A stretch of 64,000 nt of DNA from Gekko japonicus. Taxonomy: Eukaryota. Position numbers: made by a program. The stretch is taken from positions 296,965-360,964 of the forward strand of contig NW_015170314.1 in NCBI RefSeq assembly GCF_001447785.1, read 5' to 3'. Position 1 is the first letter of the stretch. Each line of letters starts with the position of its first letter. Below are positions 30,001-36,000 of the stretch, one piece after another.

Positions 30001-33000
30001 AAATGACACAGCTACTCCTTGGAAGTGTTCACAGCAGGCTGGATCCTGGGAGTACCCAGGAGGAGAAGTGCAGGTGGGGAAATTGATGGGCCAAAGGAAA
30101 GACACCCTAACTGGAGAGCCAGTTTGGTGTAGTGGTTGAGTGCACGGACTCTAATCTGGGAGAACCGGGTTTGATTCCCCACTCCTCCACTTGCACCTGC
30201 TGATGTGACCTTGGGTCAGTCACAAGTTCTGGCACAGCTGTCCTTGAAAAAGAGCCGTTTCTGTCAAGAGCTCTCTCAGCCCCACCCACCTCACAGGGTG
30301 TCTGTTGTGGGGAGGGGGGGGGAAGGGAAAGGAGATTGTAAGCCGCTCTGAGACTCCAAGTGAAGGGTGGGGTATAAATCCAATCTCTTCTTCTTCTTCT
30401 TCTAACATGATGCAGGGGGAAAAGAACCTGTGACATTCAGTACCACAGTGTATGGTGGTGTTGGTGGTGGCGGCAGCAGCTCCAACGGAGGCTAGGCCGT
30501 TTCATGGAAGAGAGGGCCTCAAGCCAGGGAAGATCAGCACAAGCCGTCAAGGGGTTGGAGTGGCTTAACTTCCCGTTTACAGAAAGCTTGTTCTTGACTG
30601 TACTGGCAATCCCTGGCCTAAAAGGTCCTACCTACATGCTGTCTTTTCCAGGCCACTAGAATTAAAGCCCTTCTCTGAAGTCTCATTCCTGAGATCCACC
30701 CTGATGTCTGGCCCTTAACCAGATCACATAAAGCGACTGTTGCAGAAAGTTGCAGTTCTTTAGCTTCTGCCCAATCCAGGGTTCTTGATTGATTTACACA
30801 CATGCTCTTGCTGCACCCATAATTGGGAGCGCATCTCTTATACTAGGCGGCCTGGGAAAAACCCTTCATCCCTGGGAGCACTGAATGTCAAACCATCGTC
30901 ACAGAGCTGCTTCCAGACTTTGTTTTGCTCTTGATTACTATGAAAGAGGTGCTGCTGACCAAAGATATTTGTGTTCTTCCCCCCCCCCCCCCCCCCTCCC
31001 CCCCCCCCCCCCCCCCGTGTCCCTCTAGGTCCACAACTTCATGGAAGTCTGCTGGGATAAATGCGTTGACAAAACAGGTGCCAAACTGGACTCTAGAACT
31101 GAAACTTGCCTGGCCAACTGCGTCAACCGCTTCATAGACACAACATTGTCCGTCACCAATCGCTTTGCACAGATAGTACAGAAAGGAGGGCATTGATGAT
31201 GACCCCGTCCCGCACTGCATGGAGTTTTGCGGAGCCCTCCCTAATTAACAAAGTTGACACTGACCACCAACATCAGAAGCTCTACTTGATGGGAAGGTCT
31301 TATCACGATTATGAGACTATAACTGGCCCTTGCTAGATGTTGAACGTGGTCAGCGAGAGCAACGTCTGGCCTTCATGATGTTTAATAAATCACGAAAACC
31401 TTCCCAAGCAACTTGATCTAGTGGAAACTGGTTGCTTTGGTTTCCTTTGTCTGCACGATGAGATTTTTCCAGGTGGCAAATGGCTTGCTTTAAAATACAA
31501 GTGGTTTCAGAGAATGAATGGAAAACATGTTTCACGGGCGAGCCTGAAAGTGAAGGAGGGGCCTGTTGGCTCCCGCGTTGGGTTACTACTCAGTCATCTG
31601 TGTAGCCCCTCCCGATCTCAAAATTGGCCATACCACTCAAAACTGCAATTTGAAATTAAAATTGTTTGTATTCACAAAATGTACCACACACAACCATTCT
31701 GATGTAGCATGCCATGTTCTGGCACTGAGTGTGTTGTACAGGTGTACTAGTTTCCATTAAAACCAATTCCTTATCAAGTGTCTTTGTAAATGCATAACAA
31801 TTATTCTGTCCAGTACATCTTGCATCATAGCAGCCTTAATAGCCCAGAGCAGCTACATTCAAGCCCAGTAGCATCAGAGAGACCAATGAGATTTCGGGGG
31901 TATGACCTATTGAGAGTCAAAATTCCCTTCCTCAAGGGCTTGTGCACTCAAATCTGGCTGTTCTGCAGAACAGAATAGCCCAGAGTAGCCTAATCTCATC
32001 AGAGCTTGGAAGTGAAGCAGGGTTGGTACTTGGGCGGGAGACCACCAAGGAAGATTTGGGCTGCTATGCAGAGGGGGGCAAAGGCAAACCACCTCTGAAC
32101 ATCTCTGGCCTTGAAAACCCTGTGAAGTGGAATTTCATAGAGTTGCCATGAGTCAGTTGTGACTCAGGGTCCGCAACATAACATGAGAAGAGCCCTGCTG
32201 GATCAGACCAGGGAGGGTCCCGCTAGTCCAGCCTCCCGTCTCATACAGGGGCCAACCAGTTCCTCTGGAGGGCCAACAACAGGGCAGAGAGGCCGAGGCC
32301 TTCCCCTGAGAAGAACATCAGAAGAGCCCTGCTGGATCAGACCAGGGAGGGTCCCGCTAGTCCAGCCTCCCGTCTCATACAGGGGCCAACCAGTTCCTCT
32401 GGAGGGCCAACAACAGGGCAGAGAGGCCGAGGCCTTCCCCTGAGAAGAACATCAGAAGAGCCCTGCTGGATCAGACCAGGGAGGGTCCCGCTAGTCCAGC
32501 CTCCCGTCTCATACAGGGGCCAACCAGTTCCTCTGGAGGGCCAACAACAGGGCAGAGAGGCCGAGGCCTTCCCCTGAGAAGAACATCAGAAGAGCCCTGC
32601 TGGATCAGACCAGGGAGGGTCCCGCTAGTCCAGCCTCCCGTCTCATACAGGGGCCAACCAGTTCCTCTGGAGGGCCAACAACAGGGCAGAGAGGCCGAGG
32701 CCTTCCCCTGAGAAGAACATCAGAAGAGCCCTGCTGGATCAGACCAGGGAGGGTCCCGCTAGTCCAGCCTCCCGTCTCATACAGGGGCCAACCAGTTCCT
32801 CTGGAGGGCCAACAACAGGGCAGAGAGGCCGAGGCCTTCCCCTGAGAAGAACATCAGAAGAGCCCTGCTGGATCAGACCAGGGAGGGTCCATCTTGTCCA
32901 GCATCCTGTCTCACACAGTGGCCATTCCAGTTCCCCTGGGGAGCCAACAACCGGGCAGAGAGACCGAGGCCTTCCCCTGAGAAGAACATCAGAAGAGCCC

Positions 33001-36000
33001 TGCTGGATCAGACCAGTGAGGGTCCATCTCGTCTAGCCTCCTGTCTCACACAGGGGCCAACCAGCTCCTCTGGAGGGCCAAAAACAGGGCACAACGGCCG
33101 AGGCCTTCCCCTGATAAGAACCTAAGAAGAGCCCTGCTGGATCAGACCAGTACTCCATCTTGTCCAGCATTCAGTCTCACACAGGGGCCAACCAGCTCCT
33201 CTGGATGTCCAACAACAGGTCGTAGAGGCCGAGGCCTTCCCCTGATGTTGCCTCCTGGCTCTGGGATATAACGTGGATATAAGAGCAAGCAAGTGGGCTT
33301 GTGCTGGAGGTGAGGCCGGACGAGGGGGCCCAGCTGGTAAAGCAGAAGTCCAGCAGGAAGGGTTGGGCAGGGGCAAGTAAATAGGAGCCAGGGAGGGTAA
33401 ACGAGGTCCAGAATGGAGCCCCCAGTCTAAACAGCTCTGTTATCCTGAGTTAACATGAAGAGAATTACATGCATCCGTTATGTTGCCCCCTAGAGCGCTC
33501 TGGGAATTGTAGCTTGGAGAGCACGCTGAGGTGACTGGTGTGGCCGTCTTTTTGGATTACAGCCTTCCATACTATCTGAAGACGTGTGCGTGCACACGAA
33601 CGCTTATGCCCAGAATTAAAGAAGAGGAGAAGAGATTGGATTTATACCCCGCCCTTCACTACCCAAAGGTGTCTCAGAGCGGCTTACAAACTCCTTCCCC
33701 TCCCCACAAGAGACACCCTGTGAGGTAGGTGGGGCTGAGAGAGCTCTGACAGAAACTGCTCTTTTTCAAGAACAGCTCTGACAGAACTATGGCTTGCCCA
33801 AGGTCATCCAGCAGGTACAAGTGGAGGACTGTGGAATCAAACCCAGTTCTCCCAGATTAGAGTCCGTGCACTTTGGTCTTAAAGGCGTCACTGGACTCAA
33901 ACAGAAGCCTTCCATACTATCCTCTACAGTACACAATAAAAAAAAAACACCCGAGCCAAATTATGGTTGCCAGCTCCATCCACGTAACTTCCCAGGAGCA
34001 GCACCTGAGGAGGGTGGAGTCTGGGGAAGGGGGGTTCAGCTGGGATGTGAGGCCACACTCTACCCTCTGAAGCAGCCCTTTTCTACAGGGGAACTCATCT
34101 CTGCGGTCAAGATATCAGCTGCAGTTCCAGGAGATCTCCAGGCCCCACCTGGAGGTCGGCAGCCCTAAGCTAAGCCTCATTAAAAGATAAAGGTTCCCTC
34201 GCTCGAAAGCCAGTCGAATCCAACTCGGGTTGCGGTGCTGCTCATCTCCGTTTCAAAGCCGAAGAGCCAGCGCTGTCCGAAGACGTTTCCGTGGTCATGT
34301 GGCCGGCATGACTAAACACCAAGGCGCACGGAACGGAAAGCCTCATTAAACATGCCTCCAAATCCTTTGAAGGCTGCATTTCAATTTCTTAAGAAGAAGA
34401 GGAGATTCGATCTATACCCCACCCTTCACTCGGGGTCTCAGAGCGGCTTACAGTCTCCTTCCCCTCCCCACACCCTGTGAGGTAGGTGGGGCTGAGAGAG
34501 CTCTTTCGAGGACTGTCCTTGATAACAGCTCTGACAGAACTATGGTTTGCCCAAGGTCATCCAGCAGCTGTGAGTGGAAGAGTGGGGAATCAAACCCGGT
34601 CCTCCTAGATTAGAGTCCACTCACTTAACCACTACACCAAACGGGCTCTTTAGTGCTACTTGTGGGGGTGAGAGAACAGCCAAAAAGTGCTGTTCTCCTT
34701 AATTGCATAAACATTAATTATACCCTGCCTGGCCCTCTCTTCCCTTCCATCCCAGAACTGCCTCGGAAGTGGAATGTCTGCCAGTCAGAGATTGCTTAGA
34801 CCCAGAGAGAAGAAAGGAGAGCTTCAACACTGGCCAGTTCTCAGTAAAGAATAGTTACAAGAATGGGCACAGTAATAAGACCAATGAAAAAAAGGAAAAA
34901 GAACTGTGACAATTTAGCGCTTGTTAATATATTCATAAATCATAATATACAATAACAGAAAATAAGTAATATATATAGTGAGTGTAGACGGTGGTCTCCG
35001 GAATGGTGTGCCGTTTCGACAATGATCTTCTTCTGAACAAGGATGCGTACATAAACTGTCTTTCAACAATTCATTTCTCTTGGTGACGTATTGAAAATAT
35101 ACTGTTGATTCACTTCATCATAAAGCTATGCTTATGGCTATGTTCTTCAATGGGCAGGCATTCAGCAATTATAGCCCACTGAAGTACATAGCCGTAAGCA
35201 TAGCTTTATGATGAAGTGAGTCAACAGTATATTTTCAATACGTCACCAAGAGAAATGAATCCTTGTTCAGAAGAAGATCATTGTCGAAACGGCACACCAT
35301 TCCGGAGACCACCGTCTACATTCACTATATATATTACTTATTTTCTGTTATTGTATATTATGATTTATGAATATATTACCAGGCGCTAAATTGTCACAGT
35401 TCTTTTTCCTTTCTTCAAAGTTCTCAGTAAAGAACATACTGTCGATATGCTTGCAGAGCTACAATGCTACGACCTTCCGTTATCCCCAAAGCTCAGAACT
35501 GCATGTGTTTCGATCAGTCTCCACCCACCAGAGTAGGACCCCTTAATCAAAGCCAGGGTTAGCCACACCTCTCAGTGTTCCCTCTAAGCTGAGCTAGTGT
35601 GAGCCAGCTCACAGTTTTTTAGCCTCCAGCTCAGTTTTTTTGTCTTAGCTCAGGAAGGAGGGCTCCAGAGCAGGCTAATTTATGCAGGAGCCCAATCGCT
35701 CGCTCACAGCTTTAATGCCGGTAGCTCGCAAAGTAGAATTTCTGCTCACAAGATTCCACAGCTTAGAGGGAACACTTTTCCCTGCTGTCCCCTTTAGGAG
35801 GATCCTGCATTGAGCAAGGGTGGGTGGGACTAGATAAGATGGCCAGTCTGGCTCCTTCCAGCTCTATGATTCTATCTACCACTGTATGCTCAGGCAAGAG
35901 GGATGCCTGGGAAACGCGGCCACTTGCGGCTCAGCTCGATGGTGGCGCCTCACTGATGGCTGGAGGAGTTTGTGGTGTTTCTCCATTATTTATTGCAATT

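What the first reader, a model, noticed from the sequence alone, without database searches (positions are those of the whole stretch)
32180..33270. Polarised 134-bp x8 array made from a LINE 3' terminus; retro-3'-end satellites recur
Seen: five identical units at the tail-proximal side, then three diverged units, the last running on into further CR1-like sequence. The unit resembles the reverse complement of the CR1 3' end (compare 12808 and 61868), including the TTCT.ATG tail. Known: the CR1 3' stem-loop plus tail is the cis signal for its RT. Inference: together with the arrays at 0.8, 7.2, 8.8 and 29.4 kb, this suggests a general process that multimerises RT-recognition modules (repeated TPRT, template jumping or slippage), possibly a dispersed satellite mobilised in trans by CR1. 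This is my best candidate for an undescribed system here, but it is unproven.
Basis: partly seen in the sequence, partly recalled or inferred. Interest (0 to 1): 0.65.

Follow-up and report, generated by a model that had tools for sequence, protein, structure and literature searches.

The report
Tandem array of LINE tail ends
Eight head-to-tail copies of the last 134 bases of a CR1 jumping-gene tail form a small repeat array in a reptile-like genome, most likely by a route already described for other transposons.

Summary
The array is real: eight head-to-tail units of 134 bp at 32180-33268 (TRF score 1794). Four units are identical, a fifth differs by one base, and three are 10-17% diverged.

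Each unit is the last 134 nt of a CR1-type LINE 3'UTR on the minus strand, comprising the stem-loop and a tail with 8-nt periodicity. The innermost unit runs on only 23 nt before its 5' truncation. All 7 junctions are the same tail-to-internal join. Unit relatedness forms a ladder that follows position, youngest at the tail end.

Best reading is a described two-step route. A reverse-transcriptase-made tail-to-internal dimer formed first. DNA-level unequal exchange or slippage then expanded it, with a very recent or assembly-inflated last burst.

Tail-directed multimerisation is common in this window. It holds a CR1 dimer and a SINE tetramer with distinct 5' truncations. SINE abutments number 4 against 0.11 expected. 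The 0.8 kb and 29.4 kb arrays are not 3' modules.

Translated-ORF searches found unnamed public contigs with the same module in tandem (periods 134, 129, 123 nt), one with a different flank. Mobile multimers are therefore not excluded. Known kind, modest interest.

The parts
32180..32313 (-). Unit u1, the outermost unit, whose tail ends the whole array. It differs from u2-u5 at one base (32185).
   Evidence: 133/134
32314..32849 (-). Units u2-u5: four 134-bp units that are 100% identical.
   Evidence: four blastn matches of 134/134
32331..32366 (-). Example of the 3' stem-loop within one unit (u2). The helix arms are GCUGGA and UCCAGC on the LINE strand, about 17 nt upstream of the tail.
   Evidence: 95% of cells pair, against 32-50% when the partners are slid. 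3 pairs show compensatory change, but only between two subfamilies.
32850..32984 (-). Unit u6, 135 bp, 121/134 identical to u2-5, with 8 private changes.
32985..33118 (-). Unit u7, 121/134 identical to u2-5. It contains a T5 run on the minus strand at 33080-33084.
33119..33268 (-). Unit u8 plus 23 nt of further 3'UTR (33246-33268), then the 5' truncation. It is the most diverged unit (109/131) and lacks the 3-nt loop insertion shared by u1-u7.
31965..32179 (+). Neighbouring 5S-rRNA-related SINE that abuts the array's tail end in the opposite orientation.
   Evidence: 5S_rRNA 25.1 bits, below the gathering score of 38, E 0.048
33618..33873 (-). tRNA-derived SINE copy about 350 bp upstream of the array on the same strand. 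Context only.
12808..13842 (-). Reference CR1 copy in the window: ORF2 C-terminal fragments, a 219-nt 3'UTR, the stem-loop and a tail with 8-nt periodicity.
7172..7616 (-). Head-to-tail dimer of CR1 3' ends. The upstream copy is 184 bp (7433-7616) and the downstream copy 260-270 bp (7172-7432).
8772..9777 (+). Four head-to-tail tRNA-SINE copies covering SINE positions 1-254, 34-253, 67-263 and 68-255.

Best explanation
This is a minisatellite made from the terminal 134 nt of a CR1-type LINE 3'UTR, that is, the stem-loop plus a two-octamer tail.

Step 1 (inferred). A 157-nt 5'-truncated CR1 copy (u8) acquired a second, 134-nt copy exactly at its tail. This came either from a second target-primed reverse transcription primed on the existing tail, or from a template jump in one event. 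The result was a tail-to-internal junction, and it fixed the period at 134.

Step 2 (shown by the sequence pattern; the mechanism is inferred). The two homologous units then misaligned, and unequal exchange or replication slippage added units in stages. The last stage produced five near-identical units at the tail end.

The array is non-coding and no function is indicated.
For: Identity of the unit:
- It aligns to CR1 3' ends in the window.
- Related copies sit directly after an ORF2 C-terminus.
- Homologues of that ORF2 fragment carry RVT_1 plus two endonuclease domains, and the named ones come from birds, turtles and an alligator (45 proteins at E<=1e-5 among 268 candidates).
- The stem-loop is kept, with 3 compensatory pairs.

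Founding step:
- The unit boundary coincides with the element's own tail end, and no flanking DNA lies inside the unit.
- The two founding units have different 5' ends (157 against 134 nt).
- u1-u7 share a 3-nt loop insertion that u8 and 5 of 5 other window copies aligned there lack. The insertion is also present in separate public contigs (P0046, P0050, P0053), so it marks a source subfamily rather than a private mutation.
- The same kind of junction with distinct truncations occurs at 7.2 kb and 8.8 kb.
- Abutting SINE copies number 4 against 0.11 expected.

Growth:
- 7 of 7 junctions are the same.
- Of 37 variable columns among 135, 3 support u1-5+u6 against 1 conflicting, and u8 is the outgroup, so the tree (u8,(u7,(u6,u1-5))) follows chromosomal order.
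- u1-5 carry private changes and then were multiplied with 0-1 differences.

Precedent: McGurk and Barbash 2018 (PMC5932611, passages read).
Against: - No target-site duplication is visible in the junction, although the double-insertion model often leaves one. At most an imperfect 7-nt match lies at the two outer flanks.
- A microhomology-mediated DNA duplication (AT shared by the tail and the internal site) could give the same founding junction.
- Subfamily assignment of u8 against u7-u1 rests on few characters and on protein-level views of unnamed contigs.
- P0052 shows the same 134-nt junction on another contig, and P0053 and P0047 show junctions only about 5 nt away. The founding junction may therefore be older than this insertion, or may form at a hot spot.
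- Folding energy of the unit is not better than shuffles (z -1.33).
- The copy number of the identical block cannot be verified without reads.
Confidence: 0.5

Rival explanations
1. Mobile multimer family. A CR1 subfamily or a non-autonomous derivative carries several tandem 3' modules. [quoted passage not shown] Internal initiation or template jumps between modules change the unit number.
For: - Other unnamed public contigs encode tandem units of the same module. P0052 is colinear with 32892-32608 over all 95 residues, with the same period and junction.
- P0053 has at least 2.3 units with a 129-nt period, followed by a flank with no match in the window.
- P0047 has two units with a 123-nt period.
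- The junctions differ by only about 5 nt plus one octamer.
- The innermost unit here continues into upstream 3'UTR, as a 5'-truncated copy of such a master would.
- Each unit keeps the stem-loop and tail.
Against: - The organisms and loci of those contigs are unknown. P0052 may be the orthologous or allelic locus.
- Only 5 relevant proteins were found (2 among 29 candidates; 2 among 4 candidates; 6 hits among 1.84 billion representatives, 3 of them compositional).
- There is no other copy of the junction in the 64-kb window.
- Five identical units with private changes look like local amplification.
- A T5 run in u7 would stop pol III read-through from the upstream SINE.
- The array has no promoter element or tRNA-like head.
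Confidence: 0.25
2. Purely DNA-level origin. A single 157-nt CR1 insertion underwent a microhomology-mediated tandem duplication of its last 134 bp, followed by further unequal exchange. No second retrotransposition took place.
For: - The longest unit is the upstream one, as a simple duplication predicts.
- The tail end and the internal breakpoint share a 2-nt AT microhomology.
- All later growth is DNA-level in any case.
Against: - One breakpoint would have to fall by chance inside the last few bases of the element's tail.
- The 3-nt insertion shared by u1-u7 is also seen on other contigs, which fits a different source element better.
- Other multimers in the window cannot be simple duplications. 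At 7.2 kb the downstream copy is longer than the upstream one.
Confidence: 0.15
3. The identical block u1-u5 is inflated or collapsed by assembly. The true copy number differs, while the older units u6-u8 are real.
For: - Four units are 100% identical over 536 bp, which short reads cannot count.
- The window contains a 47-N stretch at 21753-21799, so the assembly is not gap-free.
Against: - u1 carries one private difference.
- The diverged units u6-u8 anchor one side of the array and unique flank anchors the other.
- P0052 shows at least two near-identical units of this type on another contig.
Confidence: 0.1

Closest known systems
Tail-to-internal tandem dimers of non-LTR retrotransposons made by double insertion and then expanded by unequal exchange (Drosophila; McGurk and Barbash 2018, PMC5932611, passages read)
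   Same: An intact 3' end is joined to the 5'-truncated start of the next copy. The founding copies have distinct 5' truncations. The dimer then serves as a substrate for copy-number expansion.
   Different: This case is a CR1-clade element in a vertebrate, with very short copies (134-157 nt, 3'UTR only). No target-site duplication is seen in the junction. Growth is ladder-like towards the tail.
Satellite DNAs derived from LINE 3' regions: the chicken HinfI repeat containing CR1 3'UTR plus part of ORF2, the cetacean common satellite from L1 3'UTR, and 18HT from the HeT-A 3' region (review by Zattera and Bruschi 2022, PMC9659126, passages and table read)
   Same: Tandem arrays whose unit is homologous to the 3' end of a LINE.
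   Different: Those are large, abundant satellites. This is an 8-unit, 1.1-kb array whose unit is exactly the terminal module, tail included.
CR1 3' recognition module: a hairpin plus an 8-bp microsatellite, hypothesised to be the reverse-transcriptase binding and priming site (Suh et al. 2014, PMC4316615, one passage; Galbraith et al. 2021, PMC8665684, passages; Suh et al. 2017, PMC5729268, passages)
   Same: A stem-loop lies just upstream of a tail with 8-nt periodicity, at the end of a 3'UTR of about 219 nt that follows ORF2.
   Different: The octamer here reads TTCTTATG or TTCTGATG, not the avian ATTCTRTG. Recognition by the enzyme was not tested.
Microsatellite seeding by CR1 tails in snakes (Castoe et al. 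2011, PMC3157835, passages read) and 'slippage retrotransposition' of SINE tails (Tu et al. 2004, seen only as a reference-list entry in PMC3747384)
   Same: The 3' end of a CR1-type retroposon is the seed of tandem repetition.
   Different: There only the short tail motif (3-5 nt) is repeated. Here the whole 134-nt module is repeated.

Membership tests
CR1-clade LINE 3' end | Lies downstream of an ORF2 encoding an apurinic-type endonuclease and a reverse transcriptase | tested here: met
   This is not testable in the array itself, which is truncated inside the 3'UTR. It is met in homologous copies. The 12.8 kb copy has ORF2 C-terminal fragments whose homologues carry PF00078, PF14529 and PF03372. 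The 50.9 kb and 55.3 kb copies, the closest relatives of the unit, are preceded by an ORF2 end. Assignment to the CR1 clade rather than L2 rests on the bird, turtle and crocodilian hits and on the 3' structure. No phylogeny was made.
CR1-clade LINE 3' end | Conserved hairpin directly upstream of the tail | tested here: met
   15 predicted pairs; 95% of 120 cells are paired, against 32-50% when slid. 3 pairs have changes on both sides. The 8 rows represent only two subfamilies. Single-sequence energies are not better than shuffles.
CR1-clade LINE 3' end | 8-bp microsatellite tail (ATTCTRTG in amniote CR1, per PMC8665684) | tested here: inconclusive
   The tails show 8-nt periodicity (for example two octamers at 12808 and at the array junctions), but the motif is TTCTTATG or TTCTGATG and differs from the published avian octamer.
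CR1-clade LINE 3' end | Severe 5' truncation of copies | tested here: met
   The window copies with tails are 150-280 bp. The array's innermost copy is 157 nt.
Transposon dimer by double insertion, then unequal exchange | Junction between an intact 3' end and a 5'-truncated copy, with distinct truncations of the two copies | tested here: met
   u8 is 157 nt and the next unit 134 nt. The junction is the complete tail followed by an internal 3'UTR position.
Transposon dimer by double insertion, then unequal exchange | Target-site duplication retained inside the junction | tested here: not met
   No non-element bases lie between the tail and the next unit. CR1 insertions often leave little or no duplication (recalled), so this weighs lightly.
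Satellite DNA family (dispersed or abundant tandem repeat) | Many arrays or many copies of the same unit in the genome | not testable with these tools
   No eukaryotic genome collection was available. As a proxy, three unnamed contigs encode tandem units. There were 0 matches in the prokaryotic genome collection, which is uninformative.
SINE-like non-autonomous retroposon | Internal pol III promoter head (tRNA-, 5S- or 7SL-derived) | tested here: not met
   There is no Rfam match inside 32180-33268 at E<=1 and no tRNA call there.

The most novel reading that the evidence does not exclude
The 134-nt CR1 terminal module behaves as a self-multimerising unit. The CR1 reverse transcriptase would repeatedly jump from about 130 nt upstream of the tail onto another tail, or initiate at internal modules of a multi-module RNA. 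Arrays with nearly the same phase (123, 129 and 134 nt) would then arise or spread at many loci as a retro-mobilised satellite.
Probability: 0.2. Interest if true: 0.6.

Novelty: new member of a known kind. Interest (0 to 1): 0.3.

Why it matters
As it stands, this is a clean small example of how a LINE tail becomes a tandem repeat. The founding junction, the staged growth and a very young burst are all still readable in one locus. It comes from a vertebrate CR1 element rather than from Drosophila.

It would matter more if the near-identical phases seen on other contigs reflect a reverse-transcriptase hot spot or mobile multimers. That would give a direct handle on template jumping and 3'-end recognition by CR1 enzymes, which have not been studied biochemically as far as the papers I read state; they call recognition 'hypothesized'.

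Tried and rejected
- Coding reading. Open frames of 116-135 aa cross the array, but the period is not a multiple of 3 and the frames are repeat artefacts. They were used only as search handles.
- Pfam on the ORF2 C-terminal fragments gave nothing. Homology search was needed instead.
- Rfam: no family matches the array.
- Inverted repeats around the array: one weak pair, in the neighbouring SINE only.
- Pol III read-through from the upstream SINE into the array, as a source of a mobile RNA: disfavoured by a T5 run in u7.
- A remnant of an older CR1 tail just upstream of u8: no profile match in 33270-33450.
- Paper search for two 18-letter strings of the unit: 0 papers.
- Literature searches found no description of CR1 terminal-module arrays in squamates among the listed papers. 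PMC4992247 (chicken repeats, passages read) held nothing on CR1-derived arrays.
- Scan of the prokaryotic genome collection for a 24-nt unit motif: 0 matches, uninformative.
- Three of the 6 hits in the representative search (P0048, P0049, P0051) were set aside as compositional. P0048 was read and is a long repeat protein with no unit-like segment. P0049 and P0051 were judged only from their 31-43% identity and many matched stretches.
- The identities of the 7.2 kb dimer copies and of SINE units a1-a3 do not discriminate between duplication and double insertion. Only the lengths do.
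Full report
**Observation**

Tandem Repeats Finder reports an array at 32180-33245 with period 134, 8.0 copies, 94% matches, no indels and score 1794. Read in register:
- u2-u5 (32314-32849) are identical.
- u1 (32180-32313) differs at one base.
- u6, u7 and u8 are 121/134, 121/134 and 109/131 identical to u2-5.

A 20-nt junction motif matches 7 times, at the 7 inter-unit junctions only, against 0.00 expected from 100 shuffles. 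The window has 47 N at 21753-21799, which I left untouched. I do not take the window for human. Its repeats and its LINE relatives are those of sauropsids.

**What the unit is**

The copy at 12808-13842 on the minus strand has two open fragments. Their homologues carry a reverse transcriptase domain and two endonuclease domains. The named homologues come from birds, turtles and an alligator (45 proteins at E<=1e-5 among 268 candidates; Pfam itself found nothing on the fragments).

After the stop codon comes a 219-nt 3'UTR that ends in a stem-loop and a tail with 8-nt periodicity. The array units align to this 3' end and to four other tailed 3' ends at 7172, 7433, 47363-47504 and 61868. They are closest to two tail-less copies at 50.9 kb and 55.3 kb, each of which directly follows an ORF2 end. 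The unit is therefore the last 134 nt of a CR1-type 3'UTR, on the minus strand, with its tail at the low-coordinate end.

The stem-loop is conserved:
- 95% of 120 cells are paired, against 32-50% when the partners are slid.
- Three pairs changed on both sides.
- The contrast is between only two subfamilies, and folding energies do not beat shuffles.

The papers I read call this hairpin plus 8-bp microsatellite the putative recognition and priming site of the CR1 enzyme (PMC8665684, PMC4316615, PMC5729268; passages only). The octamer here differs from the avian ATTCTRTG.

**Anatomy and history**

In LINE orientation the array reads u8, u7, u6, u5 ... u1. u8 carries 23 further nt of 3'UTR (33246-33268) and then stops, a 157-nt 5'-truncated copy. 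Every other unit starts at the same internal position, directly after the complete two-octamer tail of the unit before it. No foreign bases lie inside the unit.

Of 135 alignment columns, 37 vary among units:
- 15 separate u8 from all the others. Three of these are the junction itself and three are one 3-nt insertion shared by u1-u7.
- 8 are private to u6.
- 4 are private to u7.
- 3 are private to u1-5.
- 3 group u1-5 with u6.
- 1 conflicts.

The tree (u8,(u7,(u6,u1-5))) follows chromosomal order, and the youngest units lie at the tail end. The progenitor of u1-5 collected private changes before it was multiplied with 0-1 differences.

**Mechanism**

The seven identical junctions and the nested changes mean that most growth copied DNA already at the locus. 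I infer unequal exchange or replication slippage.

The founding dimer is a different matter. The unit boundary coincides with the element's own tail end, and the two founding copies have different 5' ends (157 and 134 nt). The 3-nt insertion of u1-u7 also occurs on unrelated public contigs, as a subfamily marker would. I therefore favour a second target-primed insertion at the existing tail, or a template jump, over a chance DNA duplication. This step is inferred, not shown.

This is the route McGurk and Barbash described for Drosophila non-LTR elements: tail-to-internal junctions, distinct 5' truncations, then expansion by unequal exchange (PMC5932611, passages read).

**Is there a general process in the window?**

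Partly.
- **7.2 kb.** Two CR1 3' ends lie head to tail, and the downstream copy (260-270 bp) is longer than the upstream one (184 bp). A simple duplication of one insert cannot give this.
- **8.8 kb.** Four tRNA-SINE copies cover SINE positions 1-254, 34-253, 67-263 and 68-255. The first three are 91-92% alike, the same as unlinked copies. The last two are 97.7% alike and share their spacer, so this array mixes insertion-type and duplication-type steps.
- **Abutting SINE copies.** Among 20 SINE copies, 4 same-orientation neighbours lie within 35 bp, against 0.11 expected. None of 20000 permutations reached 4.
- **29.4 kb.** The array is a 123-bp piece of a 5S-related SINE and does not reach that element's 3' end.
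- **0.8 kb.** The feature is a 63-bp internal SINE piece present twice.

These last two are not 3' modules.

**Evidence from elsewhere**

No eukaryotic genome collection was available, so I used the array's open frames as handles.

- **Plus-strand frame** (2 proteins among 29 candidates). P0046 has a unique flank, the tail and one unit at 93% identity. P0047 has two units in one frame, giving a period of 123 nt.
- **All 1.84 billion representatives** (6 hits). These were P0046, P0047, P0050 (a single module in a unique context) and three that I set aside as compositional. P0048 was read. P0049 and P0051 were judged from the table only.
- **Minus-strand frame** (2 proteins among 4 candidates).
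  - P0052 is colinear with 32892-32608 over all 95 residues at 89.5% identity. It has the same 134-nt period and the same junction. At the sites private to u1-5 it keeps the states found in the older units.
  - P0053 has at least 2.3 units with a 129-nt period. Its junction is two octamers followed by a start 5 nt further in, and its flank has no match in the window.

All five are unnamed records, and I did not trace them. P0052 may be the same locus in a relative. P0053 is another locus. Two junction classes only about 5 nt apart are either a coincidence (a few percent, by my rough estimate), a hot spot, or common descent of mobile multimers.

**Comparison and verdict**

Tandem arrays derived from LINE 3' regions are on record: the chicken HinfI repeat with CR1 3'UTR, the cetacean satellite from L1, and 18HT from HeT-A (PMC9659126, passages and table read). 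CR1 tails seeding short repeats in snakes are also on record (PMC3157835, passages read).

My searches listed no description of CR1 terminal-module arrays in squamates, but they cover open-access text only.

I file this as a new member of a known kind: a real, well-preserved but ordinary transposon-derived minisatellite. The copy number of its identical block still needs long reads.

One exon of a 2-oxoacid dehydrogenase acyltransferase was searched on its own.

Noticed in passing
window 62466-62606 (-): An exon encoding 47 residues of a 2-oxoacid dehydrogenase acyltransferase catalytic domain (Pfam PF00198, E 2.9e-16). From recall it looks like the pyruvate dehydrogenase E2 gene. Only this exon was searched.
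   Followed up: partly
window 7172-7616 (-): Head-to-tail dimer of CR1 3' ends in which the downstream copy is longer than the upstream one. The two copies are 92.0% alike, no closer than to unlinked copies.
   Followed up: yes
window 8772-9777 (+): Four head-to-tail tRNA-SINE copies with 5' ends at SINE positions 1, 34, 67 and 68. The last two are 97.7% identical and share a spacer after the tail.
   Followed up: yes
window 28871-29939 (+): Two full-length tRNA-SINE copies of an older subfamily lie head to tail (89.9% alike). The 123-bp x 4.2 array of a 5S-related SINE piece follows directly at the tail of the second copy.
   Followed up: partly
window 46821-47244 (+): The CR1 3' end at 47232-47508 is separated from a further piece of the same element (46784-46834) by about 400 bp. 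That stretch is flanked by a perfect 14-bp direct repeat, which looks like an insertion with a target-site duplication.
   Followed up: partly
window 2220-2291 (+), 63316-63388 (-), 2673-2742 (+), 16123-16179 (-): Four Rfam tRNA matches (56.3, 38.6, 32.3 and 29.0 bits). ARAGORN calls the first two tRNA-Ala (GGC). They may be SINE heads rather than genes.
   Followed up: no
window 31965-32065 (+): A sub-threshold 5S rRNA match (25.1 bits, gathering score 38). It forms the head of a SINE whose 3' end abuts the array's tail in the opposite orientation.
   Followed up: partly
window 36175-37157: Long open frames on both strands (207-254 aa) with 12- and 27-nt tandem repeats and no Pfam match. This may be a GC-rich island or a first exon.
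   Followed up: no
window 30979-31016: A run of 38 C (94% pure).
   Followed up: no
window 813-875 and 938-1000: A 63-bp piece of a SINE-like repeat is present twice at 98.4% identity, 125 bp apart.
   Followed up: partly
   Followed up: no
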